Source: Eubacteriales bacterium | GTDB lineage: Bacteria; Bacillota; Clostridia; Oscillospirales; CAG-272 | Direction: 5' to 3' | Assembly (NCBI GenBank): GCA_045656445.1 | Contig: JAZORD010000042.1 | Coordinates: forward strand, 1 to 53,326 | DNA length: 53,326 bases | Shown: positions 38,803 through 48,040 of the stretch, in pieces | How positions within the stretch are numbered: the first letter of the stretch is position 1 | How the letters are laid out: every line of letters starts with the position of its first letter | Notes under the pieces: generated by a model | Databases searched by the model: none | Told to the model about the DNA's origin: nothing | Seen by the model: the letters and a program-made list of their open reading frames with translations, nothing else | Position numbers and translations under genes: made by a program

Positions 38803-40638
38803 TTATTTGAGCGCAGCTCTTTTTTGCGCCTGCAGTCTTTTTCTTGCAGGAGTGTCAAGAACTACCTTGCGGAGTCTTATGCTCTTCGGAGTAACCTCGA
38901 TAAGCTCGTCCTCGGTTATAAACTCAATTGCTTCCTCAAGTGAGAGCTGTACGGGAGTTATAAGGGTAAGCTTTTCGTCAGCACCGGATGAACGAATTGC
39001 TGTGAGATGCTTTTCACGGCAGACGTTCACCTCAATATCGTCAGGCTTCGGGTTTTCTCCTACTATCATACCCTCGTAAACAGGAGTTGCAGGACCGATA
39101 AAGAGCGGGCCTCTGTCCTGCGCCTGAAAGAGTCCGTAGGTTGTGGACGTTCCGGTTTCTGATGCCACAAGAGAGGATGTGAAGCGCGTTTTTATCTCAC
39201 CGCGGAATGGCTCGTAGCCTGCGAAAAGAGTTGATATAATTCCCTCTCCTCTCGTATCGGTGAGAAGCTCACTTCTGTAACCGAAAAGGCATCTTGTGGG
39301 AATTGAATAGAAGAGCTTTTGACGCGTTCCGTTAAGCTGCATATCAACGAGAGTTCCGCGTCTTGAGCCAAGCTTTTCCATAACAGCTCCGAGATACTCC
39401 TCGGGAACGTCTATTATAACGTCCTCTATCGGCTCGCATTTAACGCCGTCAATTTCCTTATACAAAACTCTTGGGTTTGAGCAGCACAGCTCATATCCCT
39501 CGCGGCGCATATTTTCGACCAGTATTGAAAGGTGCATCTCGCCTCTTCCCGCCACTCTGAAGCTATCGGTGGTGTCACCGTCGGTAACACGCAGCGAAAC
39601 GTCACGCAAAAGCTCTCTGTAAAGTCGCGCGCGCAGATGCCGTGAGGTGACAAATTTACCCTCTTTTCCTGCGAAGGGAGAATCGTTTACCGAGAAGGTC
39701 ATCTCCATCGTAGGCTCACCGACCTTAACAAACTCAACCGGCTCAACGAGCGCAGGGGAGCAAACTGTGTCGCCTATTGATATATCCTCACAGCCGGAGA
39801 AGCAGACGATATCGCCAACCATAGCTTCCGAAACCTGCGTTTTTTTAAGTCCGTCAAACTGGTAAAGAGAGACTATCTTGGCGGGTCTGGATTTGGCGTT
39901 TTTATCGTGATAGTTGCATATTGCTACGCCCTGCCCCTGCTTGATAGATCCTCGCTCTATGCGTCCGATTCCTATTCTGCCGACAAACTCGTTATAGTCG
40001 ATTGATGAAACGAGAAGCTGAAGGGGGTCGTCCTCCTCACCCTCCGGCGCCGGCATATATTCAAGTATAGTATCAAGAAGCGGTTTTAGGTCGGTGCCGG
40101 GGGTATGAGGGTCAAGAGATGCCGTGCCCGCCCTGCCGGAGCAAAAGAGCATCGGAGAGTCGAGCTGCTCATTAGTGGCGTTAAGCTCAAGCAGTAACTC
40201 AAGCACCTCGTCACCTATTTCGTCAAGACGCGCGTCTGGTCTGTCTATTTTATTAACGACGACTATAACCCTGTGGTCCATTGCGAGTGCTTTTTCAAGA
40301 ACAAACCGCGTCTGCGGCATCGGTCCTTCAGCCGCATCGACCAGCAGGATAACTCCGTTTACCATTTTTAAGATTCGCTCGACCTCACCGCCGAAATCAG
40401 CGTGTCCCGGAGTGTCGATGACGTTGATTTTTACGTCCTTATAATATATTGCCGTGTTTTTTGCGAGTATGGTTATTCCGCGTTCACGTTCAAGATCGTT
40501 TGAATCCATTACGCGATCCGCCATTTCCTGATTTTCTCTGTATATTCCGCCTTGCCTGAGCATTTCGTCGACAAGGGTGGTTTTTCCGTGGTCAACGTGA
40601 GCTATGATAGCAATGTTTCTGAGATCTGTGCGCTTCAT
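38803..40638 (-). CDS. typA: Translational GTPase TypA/BipA
   Basis: AHVDHGKTT, ERERGITILAKN, DTPGHADF, NKID, GRGEMHL, EVTPKSIRLRK. Confidence 0.98.
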   Translation of the reverse strand: MKRTDLRNIAIIAHVDHGKTTLVDEMLRQGGIYRENQEMADRVMDSNDLERERGITILAKNTAIYYKDVKINVIDTPGHADFGGEVERILKMVNGVILLVDAAEGPMPQTRFVLEKALAMDHRVIVVVNKIDRPDARLDEIGDEVLELLLELNATNEQLDSPMLFCSGRAGTASLDPHTPGTDLKPLLDTILEYMPAPEGEEDDPLQLLVSSIDYNEFVGRIGIGRIERGSIKQGQGVAICNYHDKNAKSRPAKIVSLYQFDGLKKTQVSEAMVGDIVCFSGCEDISIGDTVCSPALVEPVEFVKVGEPTMEMTFSVNDSPFAGKEGKFVTSRHLRARLYRELLRDVSLRVTDGDTTDSFRVAGRGEMHLSILVENMRREGYELCCSNPRVLYKEIDGVKCEPIEDVIIDVPEEYLGAVMEKLGSRRGTLVDMQLNGTRQKLFYSIPTRCLFGYRSELLTDTRGEGIISTLFAGYEPFRGEIKTRFTSSLVASETGTSTTYGLFQAQDRGPLFIGPATPVYEGMIVGENPKPDDIEVNVCREKHLTAIRSSGADEKLTLITPVQLSLEEAIEFITEDELIEVTPKSIRLRKVVLDTPARKRLQAQKRAALK

Positions 40639-40655
40639 TTTATACCTCTTTTGTC

Positions 40656-41756
40656 TTAAGCTTCTATTTTTGGATTTTCCTGCGCGAATCTTTTCATAAA
40701 TGCGACGAGTTTTTCAACGCCCTCAATCGGCATGGCGTTGTAGATTGCGGCACATATTCCGCCAACCGAGCCGTGTCCTCCAAGATTGTAAAGCCCCTCT
40801 TCCATTGCTTCCTTTGCAAACTTTGCATCAAGAGAAGCATCTCCGGTCACGAACACGACGTTCATCATAGAGCGGCATTTTTTATCAACGGGGGCTGTAT
40901 AGTAAAGCTGGCTGTCAAGATAATCGTAAAGGCGGCTTGCCTTACGCTCATTGCGGCGCTTCATTTCCTCAAGTCCGCCGATTGATTTTATCCACTCGAA
41001 TACGAGCTTTGCAATATAAAGGGAGATTGCAGGTGCTGTGCTTTTTACAGCACTGCCCTCGCCAACCAGCTTGTAGTTGAGGGCGCTTGGCGTGTCGGGG
41101 CGGGCCGCAGACACAAGGTCCTCACGCACGATAACTACCGTGAGAGAGCCGGCGCCTATACAGGATTCCGCATTAGCGTAAATCAGCGCAAATTTTGATA
41201 CCTCAACAGGCTCTGAAAGCAAAAACGTGGACATATCGGCGACCAGTGGAATATTTCCCGTGTCGGGAACGTAGTGGAATTTCGTGCCGTATACGCTGTT
41301 ATTAAAGGTTATGTGAACATAATCCGCATCCGGTCTGAAATCACTTCTTTTCGTTTCCGGAACCGTCGAAAACGCAGGGGTTGCTCCTGCGCTTGATGCG
41401 GCTATTGCTATATCACCGTATTTTTTAGCCTCGAGCGATGCAATTTTTGAATGTTGCCCCGAAACTATATAGTCGGCGCACTTATGCCCGGAAAGCAGGT
41501 TGAGGGCAATTGCAGAGTACTGACAATCTGTTCCCCCTTGCATAAAAAGCACCCTATAGTTCTGCGGTATATTCAAAAGCTCCCTTAGCAGCTCCTCGGC
41601 GGATGCGGCAATTTCGGCATACTCGCGGCTCGTTTTGTCAATCTCAAGAATCGGAATAGCGCCCGTTGCGTAGTTTTCAAGCTCAGTCCTTATAAGCTCA
41701 ACCACCTCGCTTGGCAGGGTTGACTGCACCGAGGAGAAGTTATATGTTTTTTCCAT
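40656..41756 (-). CDS. SerC (phosphoserine aminotransferase) homologue, apparently catalytically inactive
   Basis: SerC scaffold (YNFS, LNIPQNYRVLFMQGG, PLVADMS, GGLEEM..RN..KA..LYDYLD, RSMMNV.F, IYNAMPIEGVEKLV) but QKN replaced by ESC, with no PLP Lys. Confidence 0.88.
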   Translation of the reverse strand: MEKTYNFSSVQSTLPSEVVELIRTELENYATGAIPILEIDKTSREYAEIAASAEELLRELLNIPQNYRVLFMQGGTDCQYSAIALNLLSGHKCADYIVSGQHSKIASLEAKKYGDIAIAASSAGATPAFSTVPETKRSDFRPDADYVHITFNNSVYGTKFHYVPDTGNIPLVADMSTFLLSEPVEVSKFALIYANAESCIGAGSLTVVIVREDLVSAARPDTPSALNYKLVGEGSAVKSTAPAISLYIAKLVFEWIKSIGGLEEMKRRNERKASRLYDYLDSQLYYTAPVDKKCRSMMNVVFVTGDASLDAKFAKEAMEEGLYNLGGHGSVGGICAAIYNAMPIEGVEKLVAFMKRFAQENPKIEA

Positions 41757-41782
41757 ATTTCTAAGCCTTCCTTACACATAGA

Positions 41783-41811
41783 ATTATAGTATTCGTATTC
41801 AAAAATGTCAA
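41783..41811 (-). promoter_or_regulatory. Consensus sigma-A promoter for the serC-like/typA unit
   Basis: Perfect TTGACA-17 bp-TATAAT, followed by AAGGAAGG RBS. Confidence 0.85.
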
Positions 41812-42324
41812 TCAGCTGAGCTCCTCAAGGGAAATTTTTTCAATCCACCCGTCAAATATCGGCTCATATTTATCCCTAAGGTCTGCTCCGCAATTCATAG
41901 TTACGTGCGCGAGCATGTCGTAGTTCCGTATTACGAAATCACAGTAAAAGGAGCTTTCAAATTCGTAGATATATTTTGCCGTAGCCGTGTTTTTCTCAGA
42001 ATCGGCGGTAAATTCAACGTCGGTATATTCGTTATACGCGATGAAATCCTCAAGATACTCCGCGCTCGTTGAGTCCTTATCTATGAAATTTTTTGTAAGA
42101 AGCTCGTCCCTTGAATAATAGTAGACGAAAAACTCACATTCTTGGTTTCCGTAGCACAGGTCGGCGTATGTGACGTTCATCTGCTCCATATCCTTAGGCA
42201 GATAAAATACGAGTCCTGCCGAGGAATGCTTTTTCATATTACCGCAGGAAGAAAGAAGCAGCGCCGATATAATGACTGCGATAAAGAGTGCTTTTTTAAG
42301 TGATTTTTTCATTTTGATTTGCAT
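41812..42324 (-). CDS. Hypothetical lipoprotein
   Basis: Basic N-terminus, hydrophobic stretch, lipobox LSSC. Confidence 0.75.
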   Translation of the reverse strand: MQIKMKKSLKKALFIAVIISALLLSSCGNMKKHSSAGLVFYLPKDMEQMNVTYADLCYGNQECEFFVYYYSRDELLTKNFIDKDSTSAEYLEDFIAYNEYTDVEFTADSEKNTATAKYIYEFESSFYCDFVIRNYDMLAHVTMNCGADLRDKYEPIFDGWIEKISLEELS

Positions 42325-42425
42325 CCTTTTGTAAAGGTAAGTAGTTACATTAAAAATGGCATTGAGCGAAATAGCTGCGATGATAATTCAGGATAGGCTG
42401 AGCAGAAATTTTGTCACGGGTCGGC

Positions 42426-43088
42426 TCATTTTACCGAAACAACCGCCGAAAGTATTTCATCGGCAGAAGAAACCACGGTGTCAGCGCCCGCGCCTAAAAG
42501 CTCGTCTATTTTTCTAAATCCCCAAAGCACCCCGATATTAAGACTCACCCCAAGATTTTTTCCTGTTTCAATATCAACGGACGTATCACCTATCCAAGCA
42601 GTTTCACTTTCATGTATTCCAAGTTTTGAGAGCACCGCTTTTGGCATCGCGGTGTCCGGCTTTAGAGGTATGCCGTCAACGCCCCCGAGCGCAGCATCAA
42701 AAGCGTCTCCAAAGAAGCGCTCTGCAATCGGCTTAACCGCAGAGTCGGGCTTGTTTGAAACGAGGGCAATCTTAATACCCCTTGCCTTAAGCTCGGAAAG
42801 AAGCTCCGCTATTCCGTCAAACAGCTTTGTGAGATAAAAGGGATTGGCGTTGTACGCATTTTGGTATTCATTTAAAAGCGACCCAACAAGCTCCCTGTCG
42901 GTTATACCCTTTGATTTGAGCGAGCGCTCCATAAGAAGACGGGCGCCGTTGCCGGCAAAATACTTACATTCCTCTGTCGTAATTTTATCTATTCCGTGCT
43001 TTTCAAGGATAAAATTTACGTAATGTGTTATCGTGCTTACGGTGTCAAGCACCGTTCCGTCAAGGTCAAATATACAGCATTTAATCAT
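42426..43088 (-). CDS. HAD-family phosphatase (phosphoglycolate phosphatase-like)
   Basis: FDLDGT, SNK, KPD, IGDT..D, WGF. Confidence 0.9.
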   Translation of the reverse strand: MIKCCIFDLDGTVLDTVSTITHYVNFILEKHGIDKITTEECKYFAGNGARLLMERSLKSKGITDRELVGSLLNEYQNAYNANPFYLTKLFDGIAELLSELKARGIKIALVSNKPDSAVKPIAERFFGDAFDAALGGVDGIPLKPDTAMPKAVLSKLGIHESETAWIGDTSVDIETGKNLGVSLNIGVLWGFRKIDELLGAGADTVVSSADEILSAVVSVK

Positions 43089-43090
43089 TT

Positions 43091-45493
43091 TTATATTCTT
43101 CTTAATTTTGCAAAGGTTGCCATTAGTTTTTTTGTTATACCCGTGTCAAATTTCACCTCGTAAAGCACGTCCCCGCTCATATCGCGTGATGACAGGATAA
43201 CTCCCTCTCCAAAGGTAGCGTGAGAAACCCTCGTGCCCGGAGGTAGACACTCTATACCGTATCCCGAAGCGCCCTTGGTTTTTTTCGCAGGAGATATTTC
43301 AGGTCGTCTATGAAATTCGCGCGACATGCTTTCGGTATAAGGAGCGCTGCGGTTATATGGAAGCTGTGTTCTCGGCGGGGTCCTTTTCGGACCGTCGCGC
43401 ATAATAAGCGTTTCCGGTATTTCCTCTCTTACAAACCGAGAGAGCATATTATAGCTCGTTCTGCCGTAAATGGTTCTGTTTTTGGCGTAGGTGATATAAA
43501 GCTTTTCCTTAGCGCGCGTTATTGCGACGTAGGCAAGCCGCCTTTCCTCGCTCATCTCCTCCGGTTCTCCGATATTTTGCAGCGACGGGAAGATTCCATC
43601 CTCCATTCCTGCAAGAAAAACCACCGGAAACTCAAGCCCCTTCGCTGCGTGCACGGTCATAAGGACAACCGAATCCGAGCTTTCATCGTATTTATCAACG
43701 TCACTTATGAGAGATATTTCTTCAAGAAAGCCTGAAAGCGTAGCTTCTATTCCGTTTTCGGAGCATCGCTTTTCGTATTCAACGGCGGCAGAGGTAAATT
43801 CGTTGACGTTGGCTATTTTTCCCTCTCCCTCAAAGCCCTCTGCCTCAAGCATTGCACGATATCCGGTTTCATCAAAGACTGCTGAAATCAGCTCTGACGG
43901 AAGCGAGTATTTACCTTTAATCCCCTCGATGAGATTAATAAACGCAGTAAGCTTATCGGCGCTCTTTGCAAGCGCGTTATACTCCGAGGCTCTTCTCATC
44001 ACCTCATACATAGTGAGTCCGACCTCTGCGGCAATTTGCTCAATTGCCTCGACGGTAGCCGCCCCGATTTTGCGCTTAGGCTCGTTTATTACTCTTTTGA
44101 GTCTAAGGTTATCGTACGGTGAGTTAATCACCGTAAGATACGCCGCAACGTCCTTTATTTCCTTGCGGTCGTAGAAGCGCATAGAGCCTAGTATTCTGTA
44201 GGGCACACCGCTTTTGGCAAAAGCAGTTTCGAGTGAACGGGCAAGCTCATTTACGCGGTAAAGTATAGCGTAATCCGAATATTTTCTGCCCTCGTCACGA
44301 ACACCGGAATTTATTCTTTCTACTATGTATTTACCCTCATCACCCTGGTCGAATGCTTCGCGAAGGGTGATTTTGGCGCCGCAGCCCTTATCGCACCACA
44401 GCTTTTTCGCGTGGCGCTTGTCGTTGTGACCTATAACCGAATTTGCCGCCGACAAAATATTTTCGGTGGAGCGGTAATTCTGCTCAAGCTTTATAACCGT
44501 AGCATTGTGGTACACCTTATTAAAGTCAAGAATATTTGCCACGGTTGCGCCGCGGAAGCGGTATATGCTCTGGTCATCGTCACCAACGACCATAATATTT
44601 CTGTATTTATCCGAAAGAAGCTTTGTTAAGATGAACTGAGCAAAATTCGTGTCCTGATACTCGTCGACGAGAACGTATCTGAATTTATTCTGATAATAAT
44701 CCCGCACCTCAGAATCGGATTGCAAAAGCTCAACAGTCTTCATTATTATATCATCAAAGTCAACTGCGTTATATTCCATAAGCTTCTTTTGGTAAAGGGT
44801 ATATATTTTTGATATATCCTTTGACCTTGGGTCGCTCGTTATTTCAAAGTCACAAGGACCGATAAGCATATCCTTAGCCATACTGATAGCGTTTGCCACA
44901 GCCTTTGGCGCAAGACGCTTTTCGTCAATATACAGCTCCTTCATACACAGAGTAAGCATTCTTTTTTTATCGTCTGTATCGTATATTGAAAATCCGTCCC
45001 TGTAGCCAAGCCTTGCGCCGTATTTACGGAGTATGCGCATGCATACAGAGTGGAATGTGCCCGCCCATACCGAATCGCTTACTGCGGGGTCGCCAAAGGT
45101 TTTTATCAGTCGGTCCTTGATTTCCCTTGCCGCCTTATTTGTAAAGGTTATGGCAAGCACCTGCCACGGCGGACAGGGTTCGCATATAAATTCGGGTAGA
45201 ATAGCGGATATTTCATCGATAGGCAGATTTTGAGCAGATTCCAGCGCGCGTACCGATTCCTCGGTTATATAATCATCTGTGACCTCCGAAAAGTAAGCGT
45301 TGCCGTACTTTATAATATAGGCTATTCTGTTTACTAGGACGGTTGTCTTTCCGCTGCCCGCGCCCGCCAAAACGAGAAGTGGTCCGAGAGTTGTGAACAC
45401 GGCTCTTGATTGCTCCGGGTTGAGAAAGGCAGAGTACACCTTATCAAAGAGAGCTCTTTTTGCTCTTATATATCTTGTTTTCAGCTCTTGCAT
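43091..45493 (-). CDS. pcrA: ATP-dependent DNA helicase PcrA/UvrD
   Basis: AGAGSGKTT, ITFTNKAA, DEYQDTN, GDDDQSIYRFRGA, QNYRS, HAAKGLEF, EERRLAYVAITRA. Confidence 0.96.
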   Translation of the reverse strand: MQELKTRYIRAKRALFDKVYSAFLNPEQSRAVFTTLGPLLVLAGAGSGKTTVLVNRIAYIIKYGNAYFSEVTDDYITEESVRALESAQNLPIDEISAILPEFICEPCPPWQVLAITFTNKAAREIKDRLIKTFGDPAVSDSVWAGTFHSVCMRILRKYGARLGYRDGFSIYDTDDKKRMLTLCMKELYIDEKRLAPKAVANAISMAKDMLIGPCDFEITSDPRSKDISKIYTLYQKKLMEYNAVDFDDIIMKTVELLQSDSEVRDYYQNKFRYVLVDEYQDTNFAQFILTKLLSDKYRNIMVVGDDDQSIYRFRGATVANILDFNKVYHNATVIKLEQNYRSTENILSAANSVIGHNDKRHAKKLWCDKGCGAKITLREAFDQGDEGKYIVERINSGVRDEGRKYSDYAILYRVNELARSLETAFAKSGVPYRILGSMRFYDRKEIKDVAAYLTVINSPYDNLRLKRVINEPKRKIGAATVEAIEQIAAEVGLTMYEVMRRASEYNALAKSADKLTAFINLIEGIKGKYSLPSELISAVFDETGYRAMLEAEGFEGEGKIANVNEFTSAAVEYEKRCSENGIEATLSGFLEEISLISDVDKYDESSDSVVLMTVHAAKGLEFPVVFLAGMEDGIFPSLQNIGEPEEMSEERRLAYVAITRAKEKLYITYAKNRTIYGRTSYNMLSRFVREEIPETLIMRDGPKRTPPRTQLPYNRSAPYTESMSREFHRRPEISPAKKTKGASGYGIECLPPGTRVSHATFGEGVILSSRDMSGDVLYEVKFDTGITKKLMATFAKLRRI

Positions 45494-45957: not shown

Positions 45958-47949
45958 TTACTTGCTTTTTTTCTTTTTTTGGTATGATGAGGCTGCATTT
46001 TTTATTCTGATTTTGCCACGGTCAGAGTTTTTTGCCTTTTTTGCGTTGTTTGAAGCCCGCTTAACCCTGACAGAAGGTCTTTTGCGCGGTACATCTGACG
46101 CGCCTTTTGAGCCGCGAGGTCTATACATATTACGTCCGCCCTGACCGAATGCCTCTTTTACAAGGCAACCGGGATCGTTTCCTATAAGGTCCTCTCTCCC
46201 AGCCTTCTTAAGCGCCTCTCGCACAAGGTTGGCGTTTTCCGGCTTTGAGTACTGTAGGAGCGCGCGTTGAAGCTGCTTTTCGCGGTAATCGGTTGTGACA
46301 TAGACGCGTTTTTCCGTCATAGGATTTATTCCGGTGTAGTACATAACGGTGGAAATTGTACCGGGGGTGGGATAGAAGTCCTGGACCTGTTCGGGAGAAT
46401 ATCCCCATTTTTTAAGCCAAAGAGCCATTTCAACGGCATCCTTCATCGTAGAGCCGGGATGGCTTGACATAAGATACGGAACGAGATATTGCTCAAGACC
46501 CGCGCGCTCGCAAAGGGCGAAATATTTCTTTTTGAAGCGCTCGAAAACCTCAACAGACGGTTTACCCATCATAGCCAGGGTGTTCGACGAGCAATGCTCC
46601 GGCGCGACCTTAAGCTGACCCGAAACGTGACGGGTGACAAGCTGCTCAAAGAAGCTGTCGTCCTCATCGTATATAAGATAGTCAAAGCGTATGCCTGAAC
46701 GGACGAATACCTTTTTGACTCCCTTAACCCGTTCTATATCGCGGAGCATCTCAGCGTACTCGGTATGGTCTACCTCAAGATGCTTACAAGGGGTAGGAGC
46801 TAAGCATTTTTTATTTGGGCATACGCCAAATTCCTTTTGTCTTTTACAAGAAGGATATCTGAAATTTGCGGTAGGTCCGCCAACGTCATTTATATATCCC
46901 TTAAAATCCGGCATTGCGGCGATTATGCTTGCCTCTTTAAGAACGCTCTCTTTGCTTCGCGAGCGAACCTCGCGGCCCTGGTGAAAGGCGAGAGCACAGA
47001 AATTGCAAGCGCCGAAGCAGCCGCGGTTATGAGTTATTGAAAATTTCACCTCAGCGATGGCGGGAACTCCGCCGAGAGCTTCGTAATCCGGGTGATAATC
47101 TCTTGCAAAGGGAAGCGAATATACCCTGTCAAGCTCCTCCCTCTCAAGCGGCGGCATCGGGGGATTTTGAACGAGCATTTTATCCCCGTAATACTCTATT
47201 ACTGCCAAGCCGCGCACCGAATCGGTATTTTTATACTGAATAGCAAAAGCCTTGGCGTAGGCTAGCTTATCCTCCTTAAGAACGTCGTAATCATAGGTTT
47301 CTATGCTGTCAAAAAATACTTTATCGCCTTTTTTGGCAAGATAGACACAGCCTCTGACGTCCCTTATCTTCTTGATAGGAACTCCCTTATCAAGAAGTTT
47401 TGCTATCCTGGTTATTACGTTTTCACCCATTCCGTAGGTTAAAACGTCCGCACGGGAATCAATCAGAATACTGCGCCTGACTCTGTCCTCCCAATAATCG
47501 TAGTGAGCAAAACGGCGCAGGGATGCCTCAAGTCCTCCTATTATTATAGGAACGTCCCCGTATGCTTCCCTTATTCTGTTAGAGTATACTATAACAGCGC
47601 GGTCAGGCCGTTTTCCTGCTACACCTCCGGGACTGTAATAATCGTAGGAGCGTTTTTTCTTGGAAACTGTGTAATGCGCAACCATCGAATCAATGTTTCC
47701 GCTTGATATGAGGAAGGCGAGGCGCGGTCTGCCAAAGCGCTTGAAATCCTCACAGCTTTTATAGTCCGGCTGAGAAAGAACAGCAACTCGAAAGCCCTCG
47801 GCTTCAAGAACTCTTGTGATTATAGCCGCGCCAAAGGACGGGTGGTCAACGTAGGCATCACCCGTGACGTATACAAAGTCCACCTCCGACAAAGCTCTGT
47901 CGGACAGGTCCTTTTTCGTAAGCGGAAGAAAATCAAGTCTGCTTCTCAT
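45958..47949 (-). CDS. ygiQ: YgiQ family radical SAM protein (UPF0313)
   Basis: GDAYVDHPSFG, GGLEASLRRFAHYDYW, CFGACNFC, GGPTAN, QVQDFYPTP. Confidence 0.93.
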   Translation of the reverse strand: MRSRLDFLPLTKKDLSDRALSEVDFVYVTGDAYVDHPSFGAAIITRVLEAEGFRVAVLSQPDYKSCEDFKRFGRPRLAFLISSGNIDSMVAHYTVSKKKRSYDYYSPGGVAGKRPDRAVIVYSNRIREAYGDVPIIIGGLEASLRRFAHYDYWEDRVRRSILIDSRADVLTYGMGENVITRIAKLLDKGVPIKKIRDVRGCVYLAKKGDKVFFDSIETYDYDVLKEDKLAYAKAFAIQYKNTDSVRGLAVIEYYGDKMLVQNPPMPPLEREELDRVYSLPFARDYHPDYEALGGVPAIAEVKFSITHNRGCFGACNFCALAFHQGREVRSRSKESVLKEASIIAAMPDFKGYINDVGGPTANFRYPSCKRQKEFGVCPNKKCLAPTPCKHLEVDHTEYAEMLRDIERVKGVKKVFVRSGIRFDYLIYDEDDSFFEQLVTRHVSGQLKVAPEHCSSNTLAMMGKPSVEVFERFKKKYFALCERAGLEQYLVPYLMSSHPGSTMKDAVEMALWLKKWGYSPEQVQDFYPTPGTISTVMYYTGINPMTEKRVYVTTDYREKQLQRALLQYSKPENANLVREALKKAGREDLIGNDPGCLVKEAFGQGGRNMYRPRGSKGASDVPRKRPSVRVKRASNNAKKAKNSDRGKIRIKNAASSYQKKKKSK

Positions 47950-48040
47950 TAAAACTCCGTTAGGTCGCCAAAGGCGGCCGCAGAAAAAACACAATAATTT
48001 TCAGTATTAAACCACAGCGGTAAGAGTTGCTGCGGTTGCA

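What the first reader, a model, noticed from the sequence alone, without database searches (positions are those of the whole stretch)
40656..41756. Full-length SerC homologue with the active site selectively erased: candidate pseudoenzyme
Seen: the 366-aa ORF is intact and keeps SerC structural motifs from end to end. Compared with the canonical SerC motifs as I recall them (E. coli numbering happens to coincide), almost every functional residue is changed: NFSAGP to NFSSVQ; H41-R42 to K-T; PLP-stacking W102 to H; Q197-K198-N to E-S-C (Schiff-base Lys is Ser, codon 41163-41165); N239 to S; H328-R329 to H-G; carboxylate-binding R335 to C. D174 is retained. Random pseudogene decay would not concentrate on active-site positions while sparing the scaffold and reading frame. 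Inference: a repurposed, non-catalytic fold-type-I protein (metabolite sensor, scaffold, or regulatory partner of a true SerC).
Basis: partly seen in the sequence, partly recalled or inferred. Interest (0 to 1): 0.85.

Follow-up and report, generated by a model that had tools for sequence, protein, structure and literature searches.

The report
Dead SerC copy kept by selection
This intact gene is a copy of the serine-pathway enzyme SerC that has lost the residues needed for catalysis, yet related gut bacteria have kept it under selection, so it probably has a new, still unknown, non-enzymatic job.

Summary
ORF 40656-41756(-) encodes a 366-aa SerC homologue with a confidently predicted SerC fold. 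It differs from the canonical consensus at 13 of 18 residues that contact PLP or substrate in solved PSAT, including Lys198->Ser.

It is not a lone oddity. At least 57 distinct intact sequences share the Lys loss, and 8 related MAGs carry it in the same synteny (rSAM-pcrA-HAD-lipoprotein-serC*-typA). All come from one uncultured Clostridia genus of herbivore guts. Other species of the genus have serC-serA-typA there, so this is the resident serC after loss of serA.

The same genome has a canonical serC-serA operon on another contig. Such an operon was found in 9 of 10 clade genomes.

Selection is purifying: omega is about 0.11, against 0.055 for canonical SerC, and 0.10 in an unsaturated pair. 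A perfect consensus promoter is retained.

Changes concentrate on the ligand contacts and the predicted dimer interface. The cationic pocket has become acidic (D77, E197, C335).

Best reading: a non-catalytic, probably dimeric protein with a new binding role. The function is unknown. My literature searches found no described SerC pseudoenzyme. The scan has noted Lys-less aminotransferases of other families on other DNA.

The parts
40656..41756 (-). Lys198-less SerC homologue (366 aa), member of 'clade A'
   Evidence: ORF; NF003764 403 bits and TIGR01364 below cut-off; PDB alignments; AF2 pLDDT 95.3; Foldseek TM 0.93-0.94 to PSATs
41163..41165 (-). codon 198, TCC = Ser, in place of the Schiff-base Lys
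   Evidence: sequence; alignments
41166..41168 (-). codon 197, GAA = Glu (canonical Gln that binds the PLP phosphate); Glu in 52 of 57 clade A sequences
41526..41528 (-). codon 77, GAT = Asp, in place of the Ser/Thr that binds the PLP phosphate; Asp in 37 and Glu in 5 of 57 clade A sequences
   Evidence: role of the residue from PMC6043687 section 11
40752..40754 (-). codon 335, TGT = Cys, in place of the substrate-carboxylate Arg; Cys in 53 of 57 clade A and 10 of 10 group B sequences
41235..41237 (-). codon 174, GAT = Asp, retained (pairs with the pyridine N1 in PSAT)
41783..41811 (-). sigma-70-type promoter TTGACA-17-TATAAT, 12 of 12 matches, directly upstream of the ORF
   Evidence: sequence; the same perfect match upstream of 6 of 9 other clade A genes, 8 of 10 group B genes and 9 of 10 canonical type-2 serC genes
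41766..41771 (-). ribosome-binding site GGAAGG, 9 nt before the ATG
   Evidence: read from the sequence
38803..40638 (-). typA/bipA GTPase, 17 nt downstream with its own RBS; probably co-transcribed; conserved downstream neighbour
41812..42324 (-). 170-aa predicted lipoprotein (signal peptide with LSSC, read by eye), conserved upstream neighbour, fast evolving (32-48% identity)
42426..43088 (-). HAD-IA phosphatase (phosphoglycolate-phosphatase-like, below every equivalog cut-off), part of the conserved block
43091..45493 (-). pcrA/uvrD-type helicase by the sequence (name from my reading of the translation, not scanned), part of the conserved block

Best explanation
The gene encodes a catalytically dead descendant of phosphoserine aminotransferase, a pseudoenzyme that natural selection has kept.

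History (shown by comparison): species of this uncultured Clostridia genus typically carry serC-serA-typA. In one lineage serA was lost from this locus, while a second, canonical serC-serA operon elsewhere does the enzymatic job. The orphaned serC stayed in place in front of typA. It lost its Schiff-base Lys, the PLP-phosphate cup and four of the five residues that hold the substrate's phosphate and carboxylate.

Properties (inferred):
- It still folds like SerC and probably still forms the SerC-type homodimer.
- Its once cationic pocket is now acidic and roomier (D77, E197, D174; Lys198, Arg329 and Arg335 replaced by small residues). It therefore should bind neither PLP nor phospho-substrates.
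- It is transcribed from a consensus promoter, probably together with typA.

Most likely mode of action (inference, not shown): a non-catalytic binding protein. It would use the remodelled pocket for a different, non-anionic ligand, and/or the strongly conserved outer surfaces (residues 111-150 and 249-322) for a protein partner.
For: Dead site: 13 of 18 PSAT ligand contacts are changed in the query (contacts from PMC6043687 sections 11 and 13, mapped).

Intact fold: AF2 pLDDT 95.3, pTM 0.93 with a 149-row alignment. Foldseek TM is 0.93-0.94 to human, Pseudomonas and Bacillus PSAT.

Family:
- 60 of the 120 best database hits lack Lys198.
- 57 of 233 distinct sequences form 'clade A'.
- All loci with DNA are intact ORFs of 359-366 aa.

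Orthology: the order rSAM-pcrA-HAD-lipoprotein-serC*-typA, or the part of it that the locus holds, is seen in 8 other genomes. Twelve loci of other species have serC-serA-typA.

Selection:
- omega 0.117 (9 sequences) and 0.114 (5), against 0.055 for canonical SerC of the same 5 genomes.
- An unsaturated pair, L079/L067, gives dS 0.83, dN 0.083, omega 0.10.

Link with serA: of 91 distinct serC loci next to serA, 91 keep Lys198 (83 match the majority at all 18 contacts; the other 8 differ only at positions 76, 77 and 102, carrying G/A76, T77 and W102). Of 21 loci with no serA within 1.7 kb on either side, 19 lack Lys198 and the other 2 carry other contact changes.

Second copy: a canonical serC-serA is present in G000 and in 9 of 10 clade genomes.

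Localised change:
- 17 of 18 contacts changed in the clade, against 58 of 172 other canonical-invariant positions (p = 5e-7).
- 32 of 45 invariant positions in the predicted interface changed, against 43 of 145 outside it (p = 9e-7).
- Only 2 of 14 invariant positions changed in 111-150, and 3 of 34 in 249-322.

Expression signals: a 12 of 12 promoter and an RBS, conserved across the clade.

Homodimer model: ipSAE 0.82 against a best control of 0.00. Runs agree in at least 93% of contacts and partner pLDDT is at least 89. In the calibration 20 of 30 solved homomers and 1 of 23 monomers reached the mark.
Against: - No biochemical datum exists. 'Non-catalytic' rests on residue roles known from canonical PSATs.
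- Asp174, Ser176, Thr/Ser154, Asn152-153 and His328 are largely kept, so a pyridine-type ligand is not excluded.
- The homodimer pass may simply reflect the model's memory of solved SerC dimers.
- The groups used for the site statistics were defined by the active-site signature itself, and the sequences are kin. The p-values therefore overstate.
- dS is saturated for most pairs.
- In the query's own subclade (P0001-P0008) positions 198 and 199 vary freely (S/T/P/A/I and C/S/A). That argues against a precise new catalytic or metal site there.
- The 99.5%-identical variant in run X1 differs by 4 non-synonymous and 3 synonymous changes. This is too few to test, but not a strong signal of constraint.
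Confidence: 0.72

Rival explanations
1. Regulatory or poisoning subunit of the true SerC. The dead copy would form heterodimers with the canonical SerC of the same cell and tune or block serine synthesis, as the plant pseudoenzyme PDX1.2 modulates its catalytic paralogues.
For: A canonical serC-serA operon co-occurs in 9 of 10 clade A genomes. SerC active sites are built across the dimer interface: H110*, R111*, N306* and T307* come from the partner subunit (PMC6043687 sections 11 and 13). The fold and an SerC-type interface are retained in the models.
Against: - The two proteins are only 57% identical.
- 32 of 45 canonical-invariant positions in the predicted interface have changed. This fits insulation from the paralogue at least as well as pairing with it.
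- A heterodimer would lack the partner's H41*, R42* and N239*. It would cripple the good subunit, which sits badly with a consensus promoter. This step is my inference.
- In G176 (90% complete) neither a canonical serC nor serA was found.
- No heterodimer test was run.
Confidence: 0.13
2. Still an enzyme, with chemistry that does not need the Schiff-base Lys. One model is a PMP-type enzyme like the sugar dehydratases ColD and E1, where His replaces Lys (recalled, not checked here). Another is a cofactor-free activity that uses Cys335 and Glu197.
For: Asp174 is kept in 53 of 57 sequences, Ser/Thr176 in 57 of 57 and His328 in 48 of 57. A new conserved set has appeared: E197 (52 of 57), C335 (53 of 57) and G201 (100%). 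The omega value is as low as for many enzymes.
Against: - The PLP/PMP phosphate cup is destroyed and made acidic: S77->D/E in 42 of 57, Q197->E, N239 and T240 variable.
- Residue 198 is C, S, A, Y, T, P or I and residue 102 is L, F, H, Q or R across the clade. No constant catalytic candidate sits at the centre of the pocket.
- The loops 195-205 and 233-248 are the least conserved parts of the protein.
Confidence: 0.1
3. A decaying relic. On this view it is a redundant serC on its way to becoming a pseudogene. It would be kept open only because it lies between a strong promoter and the essential typA, or because too little time has passed.
For: It arose after loss of the serA partner and in the presence of a redundant operon. 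Lys loss has happened repeatedly in serA-less copies, one case very recently: L071 has Gln198 while the near-identical P0092 has Lys. The active-site loops evolve freely.
Against: - omega is 0.10-0.12, including unsaturated pairs.
- 115 of 190 canonical-invariant residues are still kept across a clade whose members are only 59-73% identical to the query.
- All sequences examined are full length, with no stop inside the query-like best matches listed. No indels were seen.
- A spacer that only carries a promoter would not be constrained at the protein level.
- The genome is small (1.51 Mb), where dead DNA is usually lost (general knowledge).
Confidence: 0.05

Closest known systems
Phosphoserine aminotransferase SerC/PSAT (EC 2.6.1.52; NCBIfam NF003764 and TIGR01364; e.g. 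PDB 4xk1, 1bjn, 6czx)
   Same: Clear homologue over its full length: 42% identity to 4xk1, and 57% to the genome's own SerC. Same fold (TM 0.93-0.94) and a predicted SerC-type dimer. It descends in place from a serC of a serC-serA-typA locus.
   Different: - No Schiff-base Lys.
- PLP-phosphate cup and substrate-binding His/Arg residues replaced.
- The pocket charge is inverted.
- No serA neighbour.
- Below the TIGR01364 cut-off.
Pseudoenzyme paralogues that act through their catalytic relatives, e.g. Arabidopsis PDX1.2
   Same: A dead paralogue kept next to live ones in the same cell. It is a possible model for a hetero-oligomeric regulator.
   Different: Unrelated fold and pathway, and no evidence here for hetero-oligomers. 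I saw only the title of the PDX1.2 paper, in the reference list of PMC6522883. The mechanism is recalled.
MocR/GabR/PdxR regulators (aminotransferase-like fold-type-I domain used as an effector sensor)
   Same: A fold-type-I aminotransferase scaffold reused for binding rather than metabolism.
   Different: Those keep the Lys and bind PLP, and are fused to a wHTH DNA-binding domain (recalled). This protein has no extra domain (366 aa, SerC length) and has lost the Lys and the phosphate cup.
Lys-less aminotransferase homologues noted earlier in this scan (YbdL-like next to recO in Bacteroidales; Lys-less HisC in an Asgard archaeon)
   Same: Intact, conserved aminotransferase-fold proteins without the catalytic Lys. 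The recO-linked group was also reported to have lost the Lys repeatedly (AI notes, not checked here).
   Different: Different aminotransferase classes and different taxa. Here the ancestral locus, the lost operon partner and the stepwise intermediates are all visible.
PMP-dependent sugar dehydratases ColD / E1 (aspartate-aminotransferase superfamily, Lys replaced by His)
   Same: They show that loss of the Lys alone does not prove loss of catalysis.
   Different: They keep the cofactor-phosphate site (recalled). Here that site is replaced by acidic residues.

Membership tests
SerC / phosphoserine aminotransferase | Full-length match to the curated family models above their cut-offs | tested here: inconclusive
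   NF003764 scores 403 bits, above its 253 cut-off. TIGR01364 scores 384.2 bits, below its 443.6 cut-off. In whole-genome searches canonical copies score 544-562 bits and clade A copies 387-436 bits.
SerC / phosphoserine aminotransferase | Schiff-base lysine (K198 E. coli numbering; K265 AtPSAT1) | tested here: not met
   Ser198. The residue is absent in all 57 clade A sequences; this is by definition of the group, but it also holds for all loci that share the synteny.
SerC / phosphoserine aminotransferase | PLP-phosphate cup (residues 76, 77, 197 and, from the other subunit, 239 and 240) | tested here: not met
   Query has T76, D77, E197, S239; only T240 is kept. Residue roles are from PMC6043687 section 11.
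SerC / phosphoserine aminotransferase | Asp pairing with the pyridine N1 (D174) | tested here: met
   D174 is kept in the query and in 53 of 57 clade A sequences.
SerC / phosphoserine aminotransferase | Substrate phosphate and carboxylate binding residues H41*, R42*, H328, R329, R335 | tested here: not met
   Query has K41, T42, H328, G329, C335. Residue roles are from PMC6043687 section 13.
SerC / phosphoserine aminotransferase | Fold-type-I, class V aminotransferase fold | tested here: met
   PF00266 at 2.4e-26; AF2 pLDDT 95.3; TM 0.93-0.94 to PSAT structures.
SerC / phosphoserine aminotransferase | Homodimer | tested here: inconclusive
   The model supports a SerC-type homodimer: ipSAE 0.82 against a best control of 0.00, at least 93% contact agreement, partner pLDDT at least 89. 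In the calibration 20 of 30 solved homomers and 1 of 23 monomers reached the mark. The pass may come from likeness to solved SerC dimers.
SerC / phosphoserine aminotransferase | Transaminase activity / PLP binding | not testable with these tools
   Needs purified protein.
SerC / phosphoserine aminotransferase | Gene linked to serA in this group of organisms (a regularity seen here, not a formal definition) | tested here: not met
   No serA lies beside it; typA follows after 17 nt. All 91 serA-adjacent loci are canonical.
Pseudoenzyme (dead homologue of an enzyme kept by selection) | Clear homology to an enzyme family with loss of essential catalytic residues | tested here: met
Pseudoenzyme (dead homologue of an enzyme kept by selection) | Purifying selection on the coding sequence and conservation across species | tested here: met
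   omega is 0.10-0.12. Intact copies in the same synteny occur in 8 other species-level genomes.
Pseudoenzyme (dead homologue of an enzyme kept by selection) | Demonstrated lack of the ancestral activity and a demonstrated new role | not testable with these tools
   Needs biochemistry and genetics.

The most novel reading that the evidence does not exclude
Orphaned SerC copies in this genus have repeatedly been turned into a new family of abundant, dimeric, non-catalytic proteins. Two syntenic lineages are seen (clade A and group B), plus recent single cases. Their PLP and phospho-substrate pocket has been converted from cationic to acidic and now binds a different, cationic or metal ligand. 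Their dimer interface has been rewritten to insulate them from the working SerC. This would be a natural, step-by-step record of how an enzyme becomes a binding protein.
Probability: 0.3. Interest if true: 0.75.

Novelty: new variant of a known kind. Interest (0 to 1): 0.6.

Why it matters
Databases and pipelines name this protein '3-phosphoserine/phosphohydroxythreonine transaminase' (source names seen; it passes the NF003764 cut-off). Metabolic reconstructions of these herbivore-gut bacteria may therefore count it as a working transaminase.

It is also an unusually legible case of pseudoenzyme birth. The following are all available as natural sequences:
- the ancestral locus (serC-serA-typA);
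- the lost operon partner;
- the redundant operon elsewhere;
- a ladder of intermediates: R329 changed first, then H41/R42, then K198, then the acidic rewrite;
- a second parallel lineage.

That makes two questions directly testable by expression and structure work. What keeps a dead enzyme under selection? Is the dimer interface re-engineered to avoid poisoning the live paralogue?

Tried and rejected
- First structure prediction. With the shallow clade-only alignment A1 (52 rows) it gave pLDDT 67.2, with residues 76-169 below 50. I attribute this to alignment depth, because the 149-row alignment gave 95.3.
I could not measure distances in the pocket, for example between Cys199/Cys335/His328, nor map conserved surface patches.
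- Expression. No RNA holder was listed for the stretch, so nothing can be said about expression from reads.
- Runs X2-X4 held only short or diverged pieces and were not used for habitat or strain claims.
- Run X1. One contig is 99.5% identical over 40582-42400. It shows 7 differences in the ORF (3 synonymous, 4 non-synonymous) and no indels. This is too few for a test, and the run may be close to the source sample.
- A metal or disulfide site from Cys198/Cys199/Cys335/His328/Glu197 was considered and not adopted. Cys198 is present in only 34 of 57 clade sequences, and three close relatives of the query (P0003, P0006, P0007) have no Cys at 198 or 199.
- A functional link with HAD phosphatases was considered, because a HAD gene lies two genes upstream here and directly upstream in group B. 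It was not adopted. The two HADs are only 22% identical over 119 residues and belong to different HAD-IA subgroups.
- A functional link with typA was not adopted, because the adjacency is inherited from the ancestral serC-serA-typA order.
- ESM Atlas returned only ordinary SerC clusters.
- Rfam and ARAGORN found nothing in the window.
- Literature. Searches found no paper on a Lys-less or pseudoenzyme SerC. One search found nothing useful. These searches cover only the open-access library. Supplementary Figure S2 of PMC6043687 (the PSAT alignment) could not be seen; I mapped residues instead.
- No heterodimer prediction (dead copy with canonical SerC) was run. The single job went to the homodimer.
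- Earlier scan notes by sequence and by place returned nothing.
Full report
1. THE OBSERVATION

The window holds an intact 366-codon ORF at 40656-41756 on the minus strand. It is a full-length SerC homologue by several measures:
- Pfam Aminotran_5, E 2.4e-26.
- NCBIfam NF003764, 403 bits against a cut-off of 253, but TIGR01364 only 384.2 bits against a cut-off of 443.6.
- 22 solved PSAT-type chains matched at E <= 0.001, the best being P. aeruginosa 4xk1 at 2.3e-86.

These include Lys198->Ser (TCC at 41165-41163) and the retention of Asp174.

I took the list of ligand contacts from the Arabidopsis PSAT1 structure paper (PMC6043687). I read sections 10, 11 and 13; I could not see its supplementary alignment.
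- The Schiff base is at K265.
- D241 pairs with N1, W171 stacks on the ring, and T221 binds O3'.
- The cofactor phosphate is held by A145, T146, Q264, N306* and T307*, and through water by S243, G262 and Q142*.
- The substrate is held by R403, H396, R397, H110*, R111* and, through water, K174.

Through the 6czx alignment these are query positions 198, 174, 102, 154, 76, 77, 197, 239, 240, 176, 195, 73, 335, 328, 329, 41, 42 and 105. The query differs from the canonical majority at 13 of these 18. It differs at 98 of the other 348 positions (Fisher p = 2e-4).

2. NOT A SINGLETON

Of the 120 best hits in the 5.8-billion-protein collection (64-99% identical), 60 lack Lys198.

After adding sequences read from genomes I had 233 distinct proteins:
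- 129 are fully canonical at the checked positions.
- 57 form 'clade A': no Lys198 and no Asn199, typically E197, C/S198, G199, S/G329, C335.
- 10 form 'group B': Lys198->Ile/Val, R329->Pro or another residue, R335->Cys.
- 37 are intermediates or canonical variants.

A scan of 1.84 billion cluster representatives with the clade profile returned one representative for the clade (P0121, 676 bits), with the next hit at 446 bits. Among the 150 best representatives 146 keep the Lys. The four without it are P0121, one apparently independent case (P0134) and two fragments. Lys-less SerC homologues are therefore rare overall and concentrated in this lineage.

3. WHERE IT LIVES AND WHERE IT CAME FROM

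The assembly is 1.51 Mb in 78 contigs, 98% complete.

In 150 other genomes of the same GTDB family (97 genera), the 27 loci fetched from other genera were all canonical. Query-like copies appeared only in the window's own genus. Record titles of related loci are MAGs from yak, deer, sheep and goat hindgut, labelled Eubacteriales, Clostridia, uncultured Ruminococcus or Oscillospiraceae bacterium.

Eight other species-level genomes carry a Lys-less copy in the same gene order as the window. These are G176, G221, G238, G202, G161, G249 and the genomes of L102 and L136. The order is radical-SAM (45958-47994), pcrA, HAD phosphatase, 170-aa lipoprotein, serC*, typA, a polysaccharide-synthesis gene and gdh, or the part of it that the locus holds. 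L079 shows lipoprotein-serC* at a contig end.

Twelve loci from other species of the genus instead have serC-serA-typA, several followed by the same downstream genes. Their serC is fully canonical. So the dead gene is the resident serC of that locus after deletion of serA.

Trees place clade A, through a ladder of intermediates, inside this genus-specific 'type 2' SerC radiation. I used FastTree on 186 rows and an IQ-TREE quick search on 62 rows (SH-aLRT 90-97 on several ladder nodes). Long-branch attraction could exaggerate the ladder. The synteny does not depend on the tree.

4. THE SECOND COPY

G000 has a canonical serC (544 bits, all checked residues intact) followed by serA on contig 21. 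It is 57% identical to the query. It groups with the SerC of other genera of the family.

The same operon is present in G221, G238, G161 and G249 and in G250, G251 and G252. In G202 it is cut by a contig end. It was not found in G176, which is 90% complete. That makes 9 of 10 clade genomes.

5. ASSOCIATION WITH LOSS OF serA

I examined 121 distinct serC loci.
- All 91 that lie next to serA keep Lys198. Of these, 83 are identical to the majority at all 18 contacts. The other 8 differ only at positions 76, 77 and 102, carrying G/A76, T77 and W102.
- Of 21 loci with at least 1.3 kb of flank on both sides and no serA, 19 lack Lys198. The other two have other contact changes: L083 has R329H, and L096 has D174N.
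- Four more have no serA downstream but short upstream flank: three keep the Lys (two of them with changes) and one lacks it.
- Five have too little flank to judge.

The intermediates suggest an order of events. S77T and G195S and a change at R329 came first, then H41/R42, then K198, then the E197/C335/D77 set.

The Lys was lost several times. One case is very recent: L071 has Gln198 and the near-identical P0092 has Lys. Kin are not independent, so I give no p-value for this table.

6. SELECTION

IQ-TREE codon models (GY+F3X4) gave these omega values:

Set | omega
Clade A, 9 sequences | 0.117
Clade A, the 5 genomes that also yield a canonical copy | 0.114
Canonical copies of those same 5 genomes | 0.055
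Group B, 10 sequences | 0.091
Canonical type-2 copies, 12 sequences | 0.056

Most pairs are saturated at synonymous sites, but two unsaturated pairs agree:
- L079/L067: dS 0.83, dN 0.083, omega 0.10.
- L130/L134 (group B): dS 0.25, dN 0.025, omega 0.10.

Between G000 and its relatives, protein identities are as follows:

Protein | Identity
TypA | 92-96%
Canonical SerC | 85-92%
PcrA | 73-77%
Dead SerC | 66-73%
HAD phosphatase | 53-65%
Lipoprotein | 35-48%

The dead copy thus evolves about twice as fast as the live one, but it is clearly constrained.

7. WHAT CHANGED AND WHAT DID NOT

Of 190 positions that are at least 95% invariant in canonical sequences, 115 keep the same residue in at least 85% of clade A. 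The 75 that changed are concentrated as follows:
- 17 of the 18 ligand contacts, against 58 of 172 other positions (p = 5e-7).
- 18 of 27 invariant positions in segment 1-45, 9 of 9 in 195-205 and 9 of 10 in 233-248.
- Only 2 of 14 in 111-150 and 3 of 34 in 249-322.

Using the interface residues of the homodimer model, 32 of 45 invariant interface positions changed, against 43 of 145 outside it (p = 9e-7). With the ligand contacts removed the figures are 26 of 39 against 32 of 133.

Two caveats apply. The groups were defined by the active-site signature, and the interface surrounds the active sites.

Nine positions moved to a new conserved residue: Y80, S81, I83, V155, F178, E197 (91%), G201 (100%), A241 and C335 (93%; also 10 of 10 in group B).

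Asp or Glu replaces Ser77 in 42 of 57 sequences. The five cationic residues R42, K105, K198, R329 and R335 are gone; only position 41 stays basic, Arg or Lys in 48 of 57. The paper stresses that a wide positive patch is the hallmark of PSATs (PMC6043687 section 10). Here the pocket carries D77, D174 and E197. Mean net charge falls from -3.6 in canonical sequences to -8.0 in clade A, and is -9 in the query.

Within the query's closest relatives (P0001-P0008, 84-99% identical) residue 198 is S, T, P, A or I. The centre of the old active site is therefore not under precise constraint.

8. FOLD, DIMER AND EXPRESSION SIGNALS

With a 149-row alignment AlphaFold2 gives pLDDT 95.3 and pTM 0.93. Foldseek finds PSATs at TM 0.93-0.94.

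A two-copy prediction supports a SerC-type homodimer:
- ipSAE 0.82 against a best control of 0.00.
- Runs agree in at least 93% of contacts, and partner pLDDT is at least 89.
- In the calibration 20 of 30 solved homomers and 1 of 23 monomers reached the mark.

This may reflect likeness to solved SerC dimers, and it does not show binding.

Upstream of the ORF, the stop codon of the lipoprotein gene abuts a perfect TTGACA-17-TATAAT promoter (41811-41783). An RBS GGAAGG follows. typA starts 17 nt after the stop codon with its own RBS, and no terminator-like site lies between them.

The same 12 of 12 promoter stands upstream of 6 of 9 other clade A genes (one more has 11 of 12). It also stands upstream of 8 of 10 group B genes and 9 of 10 canonical type-2 serC genes. 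The strong ancestral serC promoter has therefore been kept.

9. READING

Shown:
- a SerC-derived protein without the catalytic apparatus;
- orthologous across species;
- under purifying selection;
- accompanied by a canonical operon.

Inferred:
- it does not bind PLP or phospho-substrates;
- it is a well-expressed homodimer;
- its role depends on the conserved outer surfaces and/or on a recharged, enlarged pocket.

I rank a non-catalytic binding role first (0.72). A regulator of the live SerC through heterodimers comes second (0.13), a Lys-independent enzyme third (0.10) and a decaying relic last (0.05).

The heterodimer idea is weakened by three points:
- the extensive interface change;
- the expectation that such a dimer would cripple the good subunit;
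- G176, where no canonical copy was found.

G117 (98% complete) keeps a serA-less, Lys-containing member of the same orphan lineage with no serA in the assembly. This hints that the orphan lineage has a role outside the SerA-SerC pathway.

10. COMPARISON AND NOVELTY

It works like other pseudoenzymes derived from metabolic enzymes. It is not a member of the functional SerC family, because the Lys, the phosphate cup and the substrate-binding residues were tested and not met.

I found no paper describing a Lys-less SerC in three full-text searches (open-access library only). Earlier notes of this scan describe Lys-less homologues of other aminotransferase families on other DNA. The phenomenon recurs, and this is a new instance with an unusually complete evolutionary record.

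Noticed in passing
L110:5956-7104 (+) and L093, L119, L120, L126, L127, L129, L130, L134, L137: A second Lys-less SerC-like lineage ('group B', 368 aa). It has K198->Ile/Val and R335->Cys in 10 of 10, and R329->Pro in 6 of 10. It has its own conserved synteny: a 237-aa HAD hydrolase directly upstream and an RNase T-type exonuclease downstream. omega is 0.091, and most copies have the perfect consensus promoter. One member (L072/L090, the third SerC copy of G221) still has the Lys. G000 itself lacks this lineage.
   Followed up: partly
upstream of serC in L085, L094, L117, L110, L120, L126: The 5' leaders of canonical type-2 and group B serC genes share GAAAGG followed by a short hairpin (ATTACC...GGTAAT-like) between the consensus promoter and the start codon. 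This could be a small regulatory leader. The query's 55-nt spacer lacks it.
   Followed up: no
L071 (G200:C57) versus protein P0092: These are near-identical proteins (tree branch lengths 0.003 and 0.000). Their checked residues differ only at the catalytic residue: Gln198 in one, Lys198 in the other. Both already lack H41/R42 and R329, and L071 sits next to typA without serA. This looks like a very recent or polymorphic Lys loss.
   Followed up: partly
G117 (L034/L083): This genome is 98% complete. Its only SerC homologue is a serA-less copy with Lys198 kept but R329->His, S77->Thr and G195->Ser. No serA was found in the assembly at E <= 1e-20.
   Followed up: partly
G027 (L033 and L035): A species of the same genus carries two fully canonical serC-serA operons (type 1-like and type 2). 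This may be the redundant state that preceded the decay seen in the window's lineage.
   Followed up: partly
protein P0134 (358 aa): An apparently independent SerC-like representative without the Lys (K198->Asn), also with D174->Gln. It was found among the 150 best cluster representatives. Its origin is unknown.
   Followed up: no
window 43088-43091: The pcrA stop and the HAD phosphatase start overlap (ATGA), which suggests translational coupling of the helicase and the phosphatase. The pair is conserved in the related loci.
   Followed up: no
window 45958-47994 (-): A YgiQ-type radical SAM protein (Radical_SAM_N + DUF3362, 678 aa) heads the conserved block. Its function is unknown.
   Followed up: no
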